Shown in pieces: positions 5,618-16,427 of a stretch of DNA of 20,319 nucleotides. The translations under genes and the position numbers were made by a program. Every line of letters begins with the position of its first letter. The stretch's first letter is position 1. The notes under the pieces were generated by a model that was not told the DNA's origin, did not search any database, and worked only from the letters and a program-made list of their open reading frames with translations. Source of the stretch: a virus (lineage: Duplodnaviria > Heunggongvirae > Uroviricota > Caudoviricetes); IMG/VR virus record IMGVR_UViG_2651869781_000004. The stretch is one strand, 5' to 3'.

Positions 5618-5689
5618 GACTGCGGGTGCTTGAGGCTATCTGTCTCAGGCATGAACACCAAAAGGCAGATAGAGAAAAGCCCCAGTTAA

Positions 5690-5780
5690 CATTACGCGTC
5701 CTGCAAGACGCTTAACATTAATCTGAGGCCATATCTATGCGACACATAGAGATTAGCCTCTTACGGACCGAAAGGTCAAG
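5690..5780 (-). ncRNA. Candidate Sok-like antisense RNA region (approximate)
   Basis: Expected by analogy with hok/sok loci. Minus strand has TTGACC (complement of 5774-5779) and a GCGTC-N6-GACGC hairpin at 5696-5711. The -10 is weak and boundaries are not determined. Confidence 0.2.
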
Positions 5781-5796
5781 GAGAAGCAGGCTATGA
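5737..5796 (+). CDS. Short leader ORF (19 codons) ending on the hok start codon; mok-like coupling ORF
   Basis: ATG 5737 with TGAGG 9 nt upstream; its TGA stop (5794-5796) overlaps the hok ATG (5793-5795). Shorter than a typical mok. Confidence 0.3.
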   Translation: MRHIEISLLRTERSRRSRL

Positions 5797-5948
5797 AGCA
5801 GCAAAAGGCGATGTTAATCGCCCTGATCGTCATCTGTTTAACCGTCATAGTGACGGCACTGGTAACGAGGAAAGACCTCTGCGAGGTACGAATCCGAACC
5901 GGCCAGACGGAGGTCGCTGTCTTCACAGCTTACGAACCTGAGGAGTAA
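5793..5948 (+). CDS. hok: Hok/Gef-family type I toxin (51 aa membrane peptide)
   Basis: MKQQKAMLIALIVICLTVIVTALVTRKDLCEVRIRTGQTEVAVFTAYEPEE is the Hok/Gef family signature and is nearly identical to HokD/RelF as recalled. Good SD (AAGGAGAAG) upstream. Confidence 0.9.
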   Translation: MKQQKAMLIALIVICLTVIVTALVTRKDLCEVRIRTGQTEVAVFTAYEPEE

Positions 5949-7445: not shown

Positions 7446-7811
7446 ATGACTGAACGCATAGAATTTGTTTTGCCTTACCCGCCAACGGTGAACACTTACT
7501 GGCGACGTCGTGGCAGCACATATTTTGTATCAAAAGCCGGTGAGCGTTATCGCCGTGATGTGGCGCTTATTGTTCGCCAGCAGCGGCTGAAATTAAACCT
7601 GTCCGGAAGGCTGGCGATAAAGATTATTGCAGAGCCACCGGATAAACGTCGTCGTGACCTGGACAATATCCTGAAAGCACCACTGGATGCGCTGACGCAT
7701 GCCGGACTTCTCATAGACGACGAGCAGTTTGATGAAATCAATATTGTGCGCGGTCAGCGCGTTCCTGGGGGACGGCTGGGCGTGAAGATTTACAAAATTG
7801 AGAGTGAGTGA
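7446..7811 (+). CDS. rusA: Holliday-junction resolvase RusA
   Basis: 121 aa; LPYPPTVNTYWRRRG...PPDKRRRDLDNILKAPLDALTHAGLLIDDEQ matches the RusA family motif (RRRDLDN). Start adjoins the previous stop. Confidence 0.85.
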   Translation: MTERIEFVLPYPPTVNTYWRRRGSTYFVSKAGERYRRDVALIVRQQRLKLNLSGRLAIKIIAEPPDKRRRDLDNILKAPLDALTHAGLLIDDEQFDEINIVRGQRVPGGRLGVKIYKIESE

Positions 7812-7819
7812 TCGTAAAT

Positions 7820-8362
7820 ATGATATACCCGGAAATTACAGGCAAAAGCGGCGAGCATTTACGTCTAAAAACGCTGGAAGCCGTCTGGATCCAGGGGAAA
7901 TTACGGATGTGGGGGCGTTGGTCGTATATAGGTGGTGGCAAACCAGGAAATATGTTCAATCAGTTGCTGGCATCCAAAAAACTGACAAAAACCGCAATCA
8001 ATGAAGCCCTGCGTAGAATCAGGGAGTCAGGGATTGATAAACCAGAGCTGGAAGCATTCTTGCGAGAGATGATCGCTGGCAGACAGAAGAGCTGGTTGTC
8101 TCACTGTACTGATGCAGAGGCGTTACGCATTGATGGGGTGATAAGTAAAGCGCTTGCACGTTATCCTGGATTGATTGATATCCTGCGGCAAAGGTACGAA
8201 GGGCGGGGGATGAGTAAACGCAAAATGGCTGAATTGTTGAATGAGGTGCACCCGGAATGGTGTTTTAGTACATGCGAAAAGCGAATTGCTAATTGGTTGG
8301 CTGTTGCTGAATATGCGCTATACATCCCTATGCGAGAATCGTTTGCTCAAAAAATGTCTTGA
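7820..8362 (+). CDS. Putative late-gene antitermination protein (Q-like), assigned by position
   Basis: Lies between rusA and a strong intrinsic terminator that precedes the late genes, which is the canonical Q position. The sequence does not resemble lambda Q. Start ambiguous (GTG 7808 overlapping the rusA stop, or ATG 7820). Confidence 0.45.
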   Translation: MIYPEITGKSGEHLRLKTLEAVWIQGKLRMWGRWSYIGGGKPGNMFNQLLASKKLTKTAINEALRRIRESGIDKPELEAFLREMIAGRQKSWLSHCTDAEALRIDGVISKALARYPGLIDILRQRYEGRGMSKRKMAELLNEVHPEWCFSTCEKRIANWLAVAEYALYIPMRESFAQKMS

Positions 8363-8941: not shown

Positions 8942-9991
8942 ATGATTAATACTGTAAAAATATCCAGTTGTGAGTTAATCAACGCTGATTGCCTGGAATT
9001 TATCCAGACCTTACCGGAAAACTCTGTCGATCTGATAGTCACAGACCCGCCATACTTTAAAGTGAAGCCCGAGGGCTGGGATAACCAGTGGGAGGGCGAC
9101 GATGATTACCTGAAATGGCTGGACCAGTGTCTGGCGCAGTTCTGGCGGGTACTGAAGCCTGCCGGAAGTCTTTACCTGTTCTGTGGTCATCGCCTGGCAT
9201 CTGACACCGAAATCATGATGCGTGAGCGCTTTAATGTGCTGAACCACATTATCTGGGCGAAGCCGTCCGGACGCTGGAACGGGTGCAATAAGGAAAGTCT
9301 GCGGGCGTATTTTCCGGCAACAGAGCGCATTCTGTTTGCAGAACATTATCAGGGACCGTATCGCCCGAAAGATGATGGCTATGTGGCACAGGGGCGCGAG
9401 CTAAAACAGCACGTCATGGCCCCGCTGATTTCTTACTTTCGTGATGCGCGTAAATCACTGGGAATAACGTCAAAACAGATAGCGGAAGCCACCGGAAAGA
9501 AAAACATGGCTTCGCACTGGTTTGGTACCAGTCAGTGGCAGTTACCGAACGAGGGTAATTACAACAAATTGCAGGCGTTGTTTGCGCGTGTTGCGGCAGA
9601 AAAACATCAGCGCGGGGAACTGGAAAAGCCACACCACCAGCTGGTCAGCACATACAGTGAGCTGAACCGGCAGTATACGGAACTGCTGAGTGAATATAAA
9701 AATTTGCGGCGGTATTTCGGTGTGACGGCGCAGGTTCCGTACACCGATGTCTGGACGCATAAACCGGTGCAGTACTATCCAGGGAAACATCCGTGCGAAA
9801 AACCGGCAGAAATGCTGCAGCAGATAATCAACGCGAGCAGTCGTCCGGGAGACCTGGTTGCAGATTTTTTTATGGGTTCAGGTTCAACGGTAAAAGCGGC
9901 GATGGCACTGGGGCGTTGTGCGATTGGTGTTGAGCTGGAGACAGGACGTTTTGAACAGACAGTCAGGGAAGTTCAGGATTTAATCGTTTGA
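8942..9991 (+). CDS. DNA N6-adenine/N4-cytosine methyltransferase (beta-class amino-MTase)
   Basis: Catalytic DPPY motif near the N-terminus (VTDPPYF) and AdoMet-binding FxGxG near the C-terminus (DFFMGSGSTVKAA); this motif order is typical of beta-class MTases. No adjacent restriction endonuclease gene seen. Confidence 0.85.
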   Translation: MINTVKISSCELINADCLEFIQTLPENSVDLIVTDPPYFKVKPEGWDNQWEGDDDYLKWLDQCLAQFWRVLKPAGSLYLFCGHRLASDTEIMMRERFNVLNHIIWAKPSGRWNGCNKESLRAYFPATERILFAEHYQGPYRPKDDGYVAQGRELKQHVMAPLISYFRDARKSLGITSKQIAEATGKKNMASHWFGTSQWQLPNEGNYNKLQALFARVAAEKHQRGELEKPHHQLVSTYSELNRQYTELLSEYKNLRRYFGVTAQVPYTDVWTHKPVQYYPGKHPCEKPAEMLQQIINASSRPGDLVADFFMGSGSTVKAAMALGRCAIGVELETGRFEQTVREVQDLIV

Positions 9992-10040: not shown

Positions 10041-10116
10041 GGCCCTTTAGCTCAGTGGTGAGAGCGAGCGACTCATAATCGCCAGGTCGCTGGTTCAAAT
10101 CCAGCAAGGGCCACCA
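10041..10116 (+). tRNA. ileZ: tRNA-Ile2 (anticodon CAU, lysidine type), ileZ-like
   Basis: 76 nt with CCA end. 7-bp acceptor stem GGCCCTT/AAGGGCC, D-arm GCTC...GAGC, anticodon loop CTCATAA, T-loop GGTTCAAATCC. Closely resembles E. coli ileX. Confidence 0.85.
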
Positions 10117-10213: not shown

Positions 10214-10290
10214 GCGTTGTTAGCTCAGCCGGACAGAGCAATTGCCTTCTAAGCAATCGGTCACTGGTTCGAATCCAGTACAACGCGCCA
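10214..10290 (+). tRNA. argO: tRNA-Arg (anticodon UCU), argO-like
   Basis: 77 nt with CCA. Acceptor GCGTTGT/ACAACGC, anticodon loop CTTCTAA (UCU), T-loop GGTTCGAATCC. Confidence 0.85.
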
Positions 10291-10427
10291 TATTCATTCT
10301 TCCAGATTTCTTCCGGCAGAGCCTTATACTGGAATATACCTGGCTCAGTATATTGTTGAAAATATTATATGTTTGTCAAAAATAAAAGTTCTGTTAAGTA
10401 TTGATTGAGTGTTTGTTATACGGTCTA

Positions 10428-10754
10428 ATGATTTTTTCAGTATTAAATATTTATCATTCATATGGTGTGGGTAGAGTGAATATTGATGAGGCGTCGGGGT
10501 GTTTCATCCTTAGGCAGCGTATTGATATAGTCAATGCAGCACGAGCAAAGGCCTTCAGCCGTTTGACAGTTTTGTTCTGTACTCCTGATCGTCTTTTGGG
10601 AAGAGACGTTATTATTCTGAATAGTGATGCTATACAGAGGGTTTGCGATGAGTTCATGGTTGCTAATTCAGAATTATTTGCTCTTGTTCAGGAGTACAAC
10701 AGAATAGCCAGGACCTGTGGTATGGATGAACTTCGGATTACTCATCTGGGGTAG
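10428..10754 (+). CDS. Hypothetical protein in the stx-equivalent slot (weakly supported)
   Basis: ORF-track frame 10401..10754 (TTG); first ATG at 10428. No clear SD, low GC, no signal peptide, no recognisable family. Confidence 0.3.
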   Translation: MIFSVLNIYHSYGVGRVNIDEASGCFILRQRIDIVNAARAKAFSRLTVLFCTPDRLLGRDVIILNSDAIQRVCDEFMVANSELFALVQEYNRIARTCGMDELRITHLG

Positions 10755-11146
10755 ATACATATCTGGATTATCACCTGTTACGGTAAAAAGTGATTGCTTA
10801 CTGTTTTTGTGAATGGCATTGCAGCAGCCGGATAATGTCAGTGCTGGCTGACGGTGTGCTGGTGGCGGGTGTGGTGGTTGTTGCTTTCCCGTTGCTGAAA
10901 AAGAAAACGCCAGACTGTTAGCCGGGTATCAGTTAGCGGGAGAAATTTTTAAATACTTCACAATTCAGGCGGTTGACTGTTGTCTGGTTTGCGGGGAGTT
11001 TGTTAAAAGAAACTGGCATGGTGAATCCCCCTGTGCGGAGGGGCAATCAGCGAGTAGGTATATGGGATAATCGCGGATTCAGGTGCTGGTACTGAATTCA
11101 CCGGGAGGCACCCGGCACCATGCAATGGCACATAGCGCCACTCTCC

Positions 11147-11172
11147 AGCCCCTCTCCGGAGGGGCTGTTTAT
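11147..11172 (+). terminator. Putative intrinsic terminator (agcccctc-tccg-gaggggct followed by a T-rich tract)
   Basis: 8-bp GC-rich stem with tetraloop followed by GTTTAT. Lies between the two convergent cargo ORFs. Confidence 0.4.
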
Positions 11173-11201
11173 ATTGATTTTGTCAGATGTGAGTAAACTC
11201 C

Positions 11202-11537
11202 TTATGGACTTTGTTGTTTTAGTCCATAAGGACATATTTGCAGAGTGCAACGGTTATTAAAGCATTCATTCAATACGTTATCTGTATTTGTAGGGCATTC
11301 CTGGCTGTTTTTGATTAAATTCCAGAATGTTTTATTGAATGGTACTACGTTGTAAATGGTTACAGGTAGCACTTTGTTATTGAGCATGATGCCTGTGTGA
11401 GTCAGTGTAAATATACTTTCAGGAGGTAAGAAAGCATCCGATTGATACCAGATTATTAATTTTATTTTACTCCATATGACTGAAAAAGATATTCCGCATG
11501 ATGGCTGGATAACTGTATCAATCACAATCCACTTCAT
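11202..11537 (-). CDS. Hypothetical protein (111 aa) in the stx-equivalent slot, opposite strand
   Basis: Minus-strand ORF with a strong SD (AAGGAAAG 5 nt before the ATG). Six Cys residues, several in the C-terminal third ([24 protein letters not shown]). A perfect 10-bp inverted repeat (11201-11210 / 11221-11230) overlaps its stop. No family recognised. Confidence 0.45.
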
Positions 11538-11796
11538 TTACTTTCCTTGTTTATGCCTTGCTGGTGATGTTCTGAAAAGTATAAATGATATTTTTGAATT
11601 AAACCATAGAGCAGAATTATTTTTCTGATGTTGTTTATTGTTTATTTAAATACAGGGTGGTTTATATCTCGTCTTGTAGTTTATCCATGCATATCTGCTT
11701 GATAATCAGGTTTTTATTTAAGGTATGGTTTTGTGTTTTTTCTGTATTACATGTCAGGTATTTTAAAGAATTATTTTTCAGATGGTGGAAAGAACC

Positions 11797-15425: not shown

Positions 15426-16100
15426 GACTTAACTCTCTTAAAAGTTGCTAAACATCGCTCGCAAACAAGAAAGAAAAGTTCTGTTGCGAGCACTCCACAA
15501 TTTAAACGCCACACAAGCAGCTATTAGGTGGACGGTTCCAAGATTGCTATCAACTGCCACCCGAATACCGTCAAAACTTGACGTCCAACCAAGAATTATT
15601 GAGTTGTAAACTCAACGCAATGATCTGGTTGGTATAAATGTGACATATGTCATGAATCGACTAGTTGAGATAGTCAAGATGGGCTTGCTTGACATCATCA
15701 CCACAACCGGAGCCAACAATGGCAGATTGCGTTACCCAGATTTGATAAAGGCATTTTAGCCTGACATAACTATGCACTGTATCGTCGCCGTATTCCCGCA
15801 TCAACAGAGACCACAGCCCGAGAGGGAGACTCCTCTGCGCGAGTGTGCGGGGATAATCAAAAACGATACACACCGGGGTTTACCGTGTTAACGGAGCGCG
15901 GCGTTGTCCCCTCATGGTCGCTGGTCCGGTGCGATGGTGGAAGAAACCGGACGATGTGTTACCTCGCAAGCTCTGTTATGTCATGTGTCTGATTTGTGAT
16001 TTAAGTCGGATAATTGTCATTGCCATTAAGCAGAGGATTGATGACCGACAGGGCTGCATTGTTAGAATAAGACTTATTCTTATCTATGCCGGGAATAAAA

Positions 16101-16427
16101 ATGAAAAGAAATCTTCCGTTAATTATTTTGTTGTCTTCTTTGGTTATGGGCTGTACGCAACATAAAACAGATATGCCTCGACAGTTGGTTAAGGCATTAC
16201 CACAATATCCGGCCTATGCCGCGGCAAATTATATAAAGGGACGGGTTGATGTGAAGTTTGATATTGGTGCTGATGGTACTGTCACCCGAATTGAGTTTAT
16301 CCGTTCAGAGCCGCACCATCTGTTTGATGAGCAGGTTGTAAAGGCGATGGCAAAATGGCGATTTGAGAAGGACAAGCCGCGTAAAGGCGTGAAGAAAACA
16401 TTTATCTTTAGTCCTTCAGCACCCTGA
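16101..16427 (+). CDS. Small lipoprotein with a TonB C-terminal-like domain
   Basis: Signal peptide plus lipobox (MKRNLPLIILLSSLVMGC). The mature part PQYPAYAAANYIKGRVDVKFDIGADGTVTRIEFIRSEPHHLFDEQVVKAMAKWRFE matches the TonB C-terminal domain pattern (compare E. coli TonB PVYPARAQALRIEGQVKVKFDV...AMRRWRYE). Confidence 0.65.
   Translation: MKRNLPLIILLSSLVMGCTQHKTDMPRQLVKALPQYPAYAAANYIKGRVDVKFDIGADGTVTRIEFIRSEPHHLFDEQVVKAMAKWRFEKDKPRKGVKKTFIFSPSAP

What the first reader, a model, noticed from the sequence alone, without database searches (positions are those of the whole stretch)
11202..11537. Opposite-strand 111-aa Cys-rich gene with its own RBS immediately upstream of nanS-p
The ORF has a near-consensus SD (AAGGAAAG, 5-nt spacing) and a perfect 10-bp inverted repeat across its stop, and is transcribed against the late operon from a 260-bp AT-rich divergent intergenic region shared with nanS-p. 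The protein has six cysteines, several in the C-terminal third ([24 protein letters not shown]), and resembles no family I recognise. An autonomously expressed gene embedded antisense in a late operon is the usual signature of a lysogenic-conversion or defence moron.
Basis: seen in the sequence. Interest (0 to 1): 0.65.

Follow-up and report, generated by a model that had tools for sequence, protein, structure and literature searches.

The report
Prophage copy of known gene iraL
The small opposite-strand gene is iraL, an already characterised E. coli gene carried by lambda-like prophages whose protein blocks the adaptor RssB and so protects the stress sigma factor RpoS from degradation; it is real but not new.

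Summary
The ORF at 11202-11537 (minus strand) is real and under purifying selection. It is not an orphan. Its 111-aa product is 111/111 identical to IraL of uropathogenic E. coli CFT073 (c1429, WP_000871291.1). It scores 162 bits against NCBIfam NF007393 "anti-adapter protein IraM" (cutoff 121) and is 62% identical to K-12 IraM. Its model superposes on the IraM chain of the IraM-RssB crystal structure 8twd at 1.3 A.

IraL was shown in 2014 (PMC4045071) to bind RssB and stabilise RpoS in log phase, from its own sigma70-type promoter. That mapped transcript start corresponds to window position 11570.

Minor corrections: five cysteines, not six; the inverted repeat is 12 bp, not 10.

Three points go beyond the literature I could search:
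- iraL sits in a 629-bp, 32%-GC cassette just downstream of where Stx phages carry stx.
- This copy has a 1-nt deletion in the probable -35 hexamer, so its expression is unproven.
- The four C-terminal cysteines, with W72, are the most conserved residues across the enterobacterial family, yet they lie in the tail removed for crystallography.

The parts
11202..11537 (-). iraL coding sequence (111 aa, stop included); RssB anti-adaptor of the IraM/IraL/RssC family
   Evidence: 100% protein identity to CFT073 IraL. NCBIfam NF007393 at 162 bits against a cutoff of 121. PDB 8twd_A at E 9e-32. dN/dS 0.155 against iraM.
11304..11537 (-). Codons 1-78: PmrD-like beta-barrel plus helix domain, the part that contacts RssB in the IraM-RssB crystal structure
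   Evidence: AF2 model pLDDT 89-97 over residues 1-80. Foldseek against 8twd_A: rmsd 1.3 A, target TM 0.89; PmrD 4hn7/2jso/2rqx follow. Ten of 14 IraM interface residues named in PMC10844676 are identical and 4 are similar residues.
11205..11303 (-). Codons 79-111: C-terminal tail carrying the family-invariant four-cysteine motif C81-P-x9-C92-x4-C97-x4-C102-P-Y-G
   Evidence: In 38 family representatives, C81, C97 and C102 are invariant and C92 is present in 37; the 38th has a shifted Cys. The tail is absent from crystal structure 8twd. AF2 pLDDT is 55-72 here.
11538..11570 (-). 33-nt 5' UTR with Shine-Dalgarno AAGGA (11548-11544); inferred transcript start at 11570
   Evidence: The 5' RACE sequence ACATCACCAGCAAGGCATAAACAAGGAAA of CFT073 iraL (PMC4045071) is found at this position.
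11578..11603 (-). Probable sigma70 promoter: -10 TATACT (11583-11578) and a damaged -35 (TTTAAT at 11603-11598; TTTACA in CFT073 and three other strains, TTTATA in a fourth)
   Evidence: Alignments show a 1-nt deletion of the C. The consensus scan does not call a promoter here. The hexamer assignment is my inference from the mapped start.
11199..11232 (.). Perfect 12-bp inverted repeat spanning the iraL stop; it encodes PYGL...SP* and is a candidate weak terminator or stabilising 3' hairpin
   Evidence: It is followed by GUUUACU only, and the terminator scan does not call it.
11167..11795 (.). iraL cassette: a 629-bp, 32%-GC block between the sRNA terminator and the nanS-p start codon
   Evidence: Homology to Stx1 phage AP005153 stops at 11166 and resumes at 11796. 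That phage has 232 unrelated bp there. GC.

Best explanation
The ORF is iraL, a prophage-borne paralogue of iraM. IraL is a small cytoplasmic anti-adaptor. Its N-terminal PmrD-like beta-barrel domain binds the response-regulator-like adaptor RssB. RssB then cannot hand the stress sigma factor RpoS to the ClpXP protease, so RpoS accumulates even in growing cells.

The gene sits in a 629-bp AT-rich cassette in the late region of a lambdoid prophage. The cassette lies between a prophage sRNA gene (STnc100 family) and nanS-p, and the gene points against the Q-dependent late transcript. It is read from its own sigma70-type promoter in the lysogen, so it changes host physiology without phage induction.

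Shown in the literature for the identical protein: RssB binding, raised RpoS level and half-life, and the transcript start. Shown here: identity, family membership, fold, purifying selection, cassette boundaries and prophage context. Inferred: that this particular copy is expressed, because its -35 hexamer carries a 1-nt deletion; and that late antisense transcription shuts it off after induction.
For: - Protein 111/111 identical to CFT073 IraL; the same RefSeq protein WP_000871291.1 is annotated on loci 100% identical to the window.
- NCBIfam IraM model at 162 bits against a cutoff of 121.
- 62% identity to K-12 IraM without gaps.
- PDB 8twd IraM chain at E 9e-32.
- AF2 model at pLDDT 85.6 superposes on 8twd_A at 1.3 A.
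- Ten of 14 RssB-contact residues are identical.
- dN/dS 0.155.
- Published function and 5' RACE start: PMC4045071.
- iraL mRNA seen by RNA-seq in CFT073: up at 37 C (PMC12890032) and up without Fur (PMC7157518).
- Prophage late-region context; the same arrangement is found in CFT073, JJ1886 and four phage records.
Against: The promoter of this copy is not the CFT073 one. There is a 1-nt deletion inside the probable -35 (TTTACA to TTTAAT), G to A at -1, and CC to GT between the SD and the ATG. The consensus scan finds no promoter at this spot. The 2014 paper says it is unknown whether an allele with a -35 mutation (JJ1886 iraL2) is expressed. The window is 100% identical to one JJ1886 copy. 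No experiment was done on this locus, and nothing here measures RssB binding.
Confidence: 0.93

Rival explanations
1. The coding sequence is intact iraL, but this copy is transcriptionally silent or nearly so. The 1-nt deletion spoils the -35 hexamer, making it a spare copy that drifts with the prophage.
For: The deletion in GGTTTA[C]ATTC is absent from all five other strains aligned. No promoter is called here. The paper's own caveat about a -35 mutant allele applies. Only about 166 of 1446 iraL-positive genomes carry this allele at 99% or more over 111 nt.
Against: The coding sequence is 336/336 identical to the expressed CFT073 gene, with no disabling change. The -10 TATACT, the start-site region and the SD are kept. 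AT-rich upstream DNA can substitute for a weak -35. An allele present in about 166 complete genomes is not a rare accident.
Confidence: 0.25
2. The gene is an anti-phage defence or superinfection-exclusion moron, as the first reader suggested as an alternative.
For: Its position and antisense orientation resemble those of many prophage defence morons. PHROGs lists the family (phrog_4407) as 'unknown function'.
Against: There is no PADLOC match. The identical protein has a demonstrated host target, RssB (PMC4045071). Relatives named IraM by NCBI occur across Enterobacteriaceae, and K-12 iraM lies outside the annotated end of prophage e14.
Confidence: 0.03
3. The main role of the locus is at the RNA level. 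The iraL transcript, antisense to the late operon and convergent with the STnc100-family sRNA 25 bp away, acts mainly by interfering with late or sRNA transcription rather than through its protein.
For: Geometry only. The sRNA is at 10987-11176 on the plus strand. iraL has no strong terminator of its own. The gene lies about 3 kb downstream of the Q-like antiterminator gene (7808-8362), inside the region that Q-dependent late transcription would cross.
Against: Strong purifying selection on the protein (dN/dS 0.155) and a demonstrated protein function. No data show read-through into the sRNA.
Confidence: 0.04

Closest known systems
IraL of uropathogenic E. coli CFT073 (c1429; Hryckowian et al. 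2014, PMC4045071)
   Same: Protein identical (111/111). Same neighbours: tRNAs, DUF3927 ORF, iraL on the opposite strand, then nanS-p/DUF1737, holin and lysozyme. Same 5' UTR start sequence.
   Different: There are seven differences in the 263 bp upstream, including a 1-nt deletion in the probable -35. The host prophage has a different antiterminator type (phrog_753 Q-like, DUF1133) and an intact nanS-p; in CFT073 nanS-p is a remnant.
IraM (YcgW/ElbA) of E. coli K-12; structure 8twd with RssB
   Same: 62% identity over 107 residues without gaps. Same fold. Ten of 14 RssB-contact residues identical. Same four C-terminal cysteines.
   Different: The upstream regions share no detectable similarity. 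iraM is induced by Mg2+ starvation through PhoP/PhoQ, whereas IraL acts in log phase without stress (PMC4045071). IraL has a four-residue C-terminal extension (QQSP) created by the inverted repeat. The 2014 paper reports a different pattern of interaction with RssB domains. iraM lies next to e14, not in a late operon.
RssC of Salmonella and other enterobacterial proteins named IraM
   Same: Same length class (about 108-125 aa), the same N-terminal domain and the same Cys4 tail.
   Different: 20-41% identity to IraL. Their genomic context was not examined here.
PmrD connector protein (4hn7, 2jso, 2rqx)
   Same: Same unusual beta-barrel fold (target TM 0.71-0.75). Both are small proteins that bind a response-regulator-type partner (PMC10844676).
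   Different: 13-20% identity. Pfam-A run here gives no match. The partner is PmrA rather than RssB. No Cys4 tail was evident in this comparison.
stx genes and other morons of the Q-to-lysis interval of lambdoid phages
   Same: Same interval: downstream of Q and the tRNA genes, upstream of nanS-p and the lysis cassette. In Stx1 phage AP005153 the shared flank begins about 45 bp downstream of stx1B.
   Different: stx is on the late strand and is boosted by Q-dependent transcription. iraL is on the opposite strand and has its own promoter.

Membership tests
IraM/IraL/RssC RssB anti-adaptors (NCBIfam NF007393) | Whole-protein score above the curated cutoff of the family model | tested here: met
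   162 bits against a cutoff of 121, E 4.7e-48, residues 1-110 on model positions 1-113 of 114.
IraM/IraL/RssC RssB anti-adaptors (NCBIfam NF007393) | Identity with an experimentally characterised member | tested here: met
   111/111 to CFT073 IraL; 62% to K-12 IraM.
IraM/IraL/RssC RssB anti-adaptors (NCBIfam NF007393) | PmrD-like antiparallel beta-barrel with flanking helix in residues 1-78 | tested here: met
   AF2 pLDDT 89-97 over residues 1-80. Foldseek against 8twd_A: rmsd 1.3 A, target TM 0.89.
IraM/IraL/RssC RssB anti-adaptors (NCBIfam NF007393) | Conservation of the three clusters of RssB-contact residues seen in 8twd | tested here: met
   I4, I6, W22, K26, I42, C14, F18, W30, I61 and Y62 are identical. 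T13S, L75I, H63N and I64V are similar-residue substitutions (residue list, alignment).
IraM/IraL/RssC RssB anti-adaptors (NCBIfam NF007393) | Binds RssB and stabilises RpoS | not testable with these tools
   Shown for the identical protein by two-hybrid, co-purification and RpoS half-life assays in PMC4045071. Not measured for this locus.
IraM/IraL/RssC RssB anti-adaptors (NCBIfam NF007393) | C-terminal four-cysteine motif (my own criterion, derived from the family alignment) | tested here: met
   C81, C92, C97 and C102 are present. They are invariant or nearly so in 38 representatives.
iraL locus as defined in CFT073 | Functional sigma70 promoter upstream of the mapped transcript start | tested here: inconclusive
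   The start-site sequence and the -10 TATACT are kept. The probable -35 TTTACA has lost its C, and the consensus scan does not call it.
PmrD family (Pfam PF11183; the family name is from my memory) | Match to the Pfam model | tested here: not met
   hmmscan of this protein and of 13 relatives finds no such match, even at E up to 10. The precomputed table nevertheless lists PF11183 for 19 of 20 homologues. The fold resemblance itself is real.
Prophage moron (autonomous cargo gene) | Foreign composition, presence/absence polymorphism between related phages at a fixed site, and its own transcription signals | tested here: met
   The cassette is 32% GC against 48.7% for the window. It replaces 232 unrelated bp in the Stx1 phage. 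A transcript start is mapped on the homologous locus.
Known anti-phage defence systems (PADLOC-DB 2.0) | Match to any defence protein model | tested here: not met
   No family at E up to 0.01.

The most novel reading that the evidence does not exclude
I propose it is a Cys4 metal-binding (probably zinc) or redox-sensitive module common to all IraM/IraL/RssC anti-adaptors, and that it governs their stability or activity. Across 38 representatives from Escherichia, Salmonella, Citrobacter, Enterobacter, Klebsiella, Cronobacter and others, the four cysteines and one tryptophan are the only residues that never change. The tail was removed for the only crystal structure because it made the protein unstable. 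I found no paper that discusses it.
Probability: 0.35. Interest if true: 0.4.

Novelty: already known. Interest (0 to 1): 0.15.

Why it matters
For the scan, this finding can be closed. The gene has a name, a structure-backed mechanism and a published phenotype.

It still has some practical value:
[quoted passage not shown] It is present in about a quarter of complete E. coli genomes (1446 of 5426).
- PHROGs still lists the family (phrog_4407) as 'unknown function'. That is why a reader of phage sequence would not recognise it.

Two small open points follow from the analysis. First, natural promoter alleles of iraL, including the -35 deletion seen here, may set different basal RpoS levels between strains. 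Second, the role of the invariant four-cysteine tail is unknown.

Tried and rejected
- Pfam-A gave no match for the protein or 13 relatives, even at E up to 10. A Pfam-only annotation would call it an orphan; NCBIfam and the PDB settle it.
- A first AlphaFold run with 14 close homologues was useless (pLDDT 39). A second run with 38 diverse representatives worked.
- PhoP control like iraM: one PhoP-box-like site, TGTTTATTGTTTATTTA, lies at 11632-11648 with one mismatch. 35 of 100 shuffles give at least one such site, and the iraL and iraM upstream regions are unrelated. Not pursued.
- The inverted repeat at the stop as a classical intrinsic terminator: rejected as unproven. It has no U-run and is not called by the scan.
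- The GC hairpin at 11146-11167 as the iraL terminator: rejected. It is the plus-strand terminator of the STnc100-family sRNA and has no U-run on the minus strand.
- Defence function: no PADLOC match.
- A literature search for zinc or cysteine in IraM found nothing about the tail.
- I did not determine which of the two JJ1886 copies the 2014 paper calls iraL2. The figure is not held, and the second copy was not fetched.
- The four 'phage' records with iraL appear, from the title and abstract of the preprint that names them, to be prophages described in sequenced clinical isolates. They do not prove an inducible phage.

Full report

Yes. The window has an ATG-started ORF of 111 codons at 11202-11537 on the minus strand.

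- An AAGGA Shine-Dalgarno sequence lies at 11548-11544, six bases from the ATG.
- A perfect inverted repeat spans the TAA stop. It is 12 bp rather than 10, with arms at 11199-11210 and 11221-11232 and 10 nt between them.
- This repeat plus the next hairpin downstream fold far better than shuffled sequence (z = -5.9).
- The 259 bp between the ORF and the annotated nanS-p start (11797) are 29% GC. The ORF is 34.5% GC and the window 48.7%.
- The protein has five cysteines (14, 81, 92, 97, 102), not six.

The surrounding genes are a lambdoid late region, all on the plus strand:
- RusA, then a Q-like antiterminator (7808-8362);
- a DNA methyltransferase (8942-9991);
- two tRNA genes (10041-10116, 10214-10290);
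- nanS-p, with DUF1737, SASA esterase and DUF6645 domains;
- holin, endolysin and Rz spanin;
- Nu1 and gpA terminase.

**2. What is it?**

It is iraL.

- BLAST against complete E. coli genomes found the 701-bp region in 2233 of 5426 genomes, and 1428 genomes cover at least 80% of it. The ORF is annotated throughout as "anti-adapter protein IraM".
- The NCBIfam model NF007393 scores 162 bits against a curated cutoff of 121.
- The protein is 111/111 identical to the CFT073 gene product WP_000871291.1. That gene is c1429, named iraL by Hryckowian et al. 2014 (PMC4045071; c1429 from PMC12890032).
- It is 62% identical, without gaps, to K-12 IraM.
- It matches the IraM chain of the IraM-RssB crystal structure 8twd at E 9e-32.
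- An AlphaFold model built on 38 diverse family members has mean pLDDT 85.6, with 89-97 over residues 1-80.
- That model superposes on 8twd_A at 1.3 A (target TM 0.89). The next matches are the PmrD structures 4hn7, 2jso and 2rqx. This agrees with the published description of the IraM fold (PMC10844676).
- Of the 14 IraM residues that paper lists at the RssB interface, IraL keeps ten. It substitutes similar residues at four: T13S, L75I, H63N and I64V.
- The frame is under purifying selection. Against iraM, dN/dS is 0.155, and 54 of 98 nucleotide differences fall at third positions.

**3. How it works**

What is published for the identical protein (PMC4045071):
- IraL interacts with RssB in two-hybrid and co-purification assays.
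- It raises the level and half-life of RpoS in log phase in CFT073.
- It is transcribed from a start mapped by 5' RACE, with the sequence ACATCACCAGCAAGGCATAAACAAGGAAA.

That sequence occurs at window 11570 on the minus strand. This gives a 33-nt leader.

The structure of the paralogue shows the mechanism. The barrel domain contacts the alpha4-beta5-alpha5 face of the RssB receiver domain and the C-terminal domain. It remodels the segmented helical linker and blocks RpoS binding.

RNA-seq in CFT073 detects the transcript. It rises at 37 C and in a fur mutant.

The transfer of all this to the window copy is inference from identity.

**4. A caveat specific to this copy**

The coding sequence is 336/336 identical to CFT073. 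The 263 bp upstream differ at seven positions. Three of them lie in the regulatory core: G to A at -1, CC to GT between the SD and the ATG, and a 1-nt deletion in GGTTTA[C]ATTC.

From the mapped start I place the -10 at TATACT (11583-11578). The best -35 in CFT073 is then TTTACA. In the window it reads TTTAAT (11603-11598). Of the five other strains aligned, four keep TTTACA and one has TTTATA. The consensus scan calls no promoter here.

Allele frequencies over 111 nt:
- About 166 of 1446 iraL-positive genomes match the window allele at 99% or more.
- 32 of the 1444 genomes matched with the CFT073 query match that allele at 99% or more.
- Most genomes carry a third allele.

The 2014 paper notes that JJ1886 has a second copy, iraL2, with a -35 mutation of unknown consequence. 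The window is 100% identical to one JJ1886 copy. It is probably that allele, but I could not check the figure.

**5. Anatomy of the insertion**

Compared with Stx1 phage AP005153, similarity runs up to 11166 and resumes at 11796, one base before the nanS-p ATG. The Stx1 phage has 232 unrelated bases in between. The window has a 629-bp block of 32% GC there.

iraL is thus a discrete cassette in the Q-to-lysis interval. In AP005153 the shared flank begins about 45 bp downstream of stx1B, so the cassette site lies a little beyond the stx position.

The same cassette occurs in prophages with different antiterminator types, and with intact or truncated nanS-p.

The upstream region has no similarity to that of iraM. 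This fits the different regulation reported for the two genes.

**6. Rivals**

- A silent copy is the only serious rival (about 0.25). It concerns expression, not identity.
- A defence role has no support.
- An RNA-level role is allowed by the geometry but is contradicted by selection on the protein.

**7. Novelty**

The finding as stated is already known. Three side observations go slightly beyond the literature I could search.

(a) The 2014 paper places iraL on "the potB genomic island". The annotation shows this is a lambdoid prophage with iraL in its late region.

(b) The promoter alleles described in section 4.

(c) The cysteine-rich tail. A profile search of 1.84 billion representative proteins found 93 relatives. 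Those whose sources I looked up come from Salmonella, Citrobacter, Enterobacter, Klebsiella, Cronobacter, Intestinirhabdus and Dryocola. In an alignment of 38 full-length members with 20-63% identity to IraL:
- the only invariant residues are W72, C81, C97 and C102;
- C92 is present in 37, and the 38th has a cysteine shifted by a few positions.

The structural paper describes this tail as less conserved, flexible and proteolytically unstable, and removed it. On average the tail is no less conserved than the domain: the mean fraction of sequences sharing the commonest residue is 0.44 for the tail and 0.45 for the domain. An invariant C-x(8-17)-C-x(3-6)-C-x4-C pattern is what a structural metal site looks like.

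I found nothing on this in the searchable literature. The AlphaFold confidence in the tail is only 55-72, and I could not inspect coordinates. This remains a hypothesis.

**8. Verdict**

The gene is real, correctly delimited and correctly sensed as a moron, but it is a known gene of a known family. Interest is low.

Noticed in passing
window 10987-11176 (+): Rfam RF02076 (STnc100, a prophage-associated sRNA family related to PasD) matches at 132 bits against a gathering score of 47. Its terminator is the GC hairpin at 11146-11167 plus a T-run. The sRNA gene is convergent with iraL and ends 25 bp from the iraL stop. RefSeq annotates a minus-strand 'hypothetical protein' pseudogene over it (window about 11006-11131), which is probably spurious. 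The last 73 bp of this element are conserved downstream of stxB in Stx1 and Stx2 phages.
   Followed up: partly
window 11205-11303 (-), codons 79-111: The four C-terminal cysteines (C81, C92, C97, C102) and W72 are the only invariant or near-invariant residues across 38 enterobacterial IraM-family representatives. This tail was cut off for crystal structure 8twd and is described there as less conserved. It may be an unrecognised Cys4 metal site.
   Followed up: partly
window 11598-11603 (-): There is a 1-nt deletion in the probable -35 hexamer of the iraL promoter relative to CFT073 and four other strains. At least four natural alleles of this short stretch exist: TTTACA-T, TTTACA-A, TTTATA and TTTA-A. 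The window-type allele is in about 166 of 1446 iraL-positive complete genomes.
   Followed up: partly
window 11199-11232: The 12-bp inverted repeat creates the four extra C-terminal residues of IraL relative to IraM. Arm 1 encodes PYGL and arm 2 encodes SP plus the stop. In the O104:H4 allele the single change in arm 1 (GGA to GGG) keeps pairing as G-U.
   Followed up: no
window 5624-5795 (+) and 5793-5948 (+): A hok/sok type I toxin-antitoxin module. The Rfam sok antitoxin RNA matches at 107 bits, next to a 51-aa ORF. That ORF corresponds to the gene annotated hokD in the related loci.
   Followed up: no
window 10041-10116 and 10214-10290 (+): Two phage-borne tRNA genes lie between the methyltransferase and the sRNA. 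ARAGORN calls the first tRNA-Met (CAT), but RefSeq annotates it as tRNA-Ile, i.e. a lysidine-modified ileX/ileZ type. The second is tRNA-Arg (TCT). These are the rare-codon tRNAs typical of the stx region of lambdoid phages.
   Followed up: no
window 10401-10754 (+): A 117-aa ORF matches phrog_2873 (unknown function, E 2e-68). It is not annotated in the RefSeq loci examined; those annotate only a small DUF3927 protein further downstream.
   Followed up: no
PHROGs phrog_4407: The phage protein family that contains IraL is labelled 'unknown function' in PHROGs v4 (E 3e-73, full length). Direct Pfam-A scans give no hit, although a precomputed table lists PF11183 for the homologues. This is an annotation gap that makes a known gene look like an orphan in phage pipelines.
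   Followed up: yes
window 16086-16427 (+): A 113-aa protein with a TonB C-terminal domain (Pfam TonB_C, E 2.7e-15) sits between the lysis cassette and the terminase genes. It is annotated 'TonB family protein' in the related locus.
   Followed up: no
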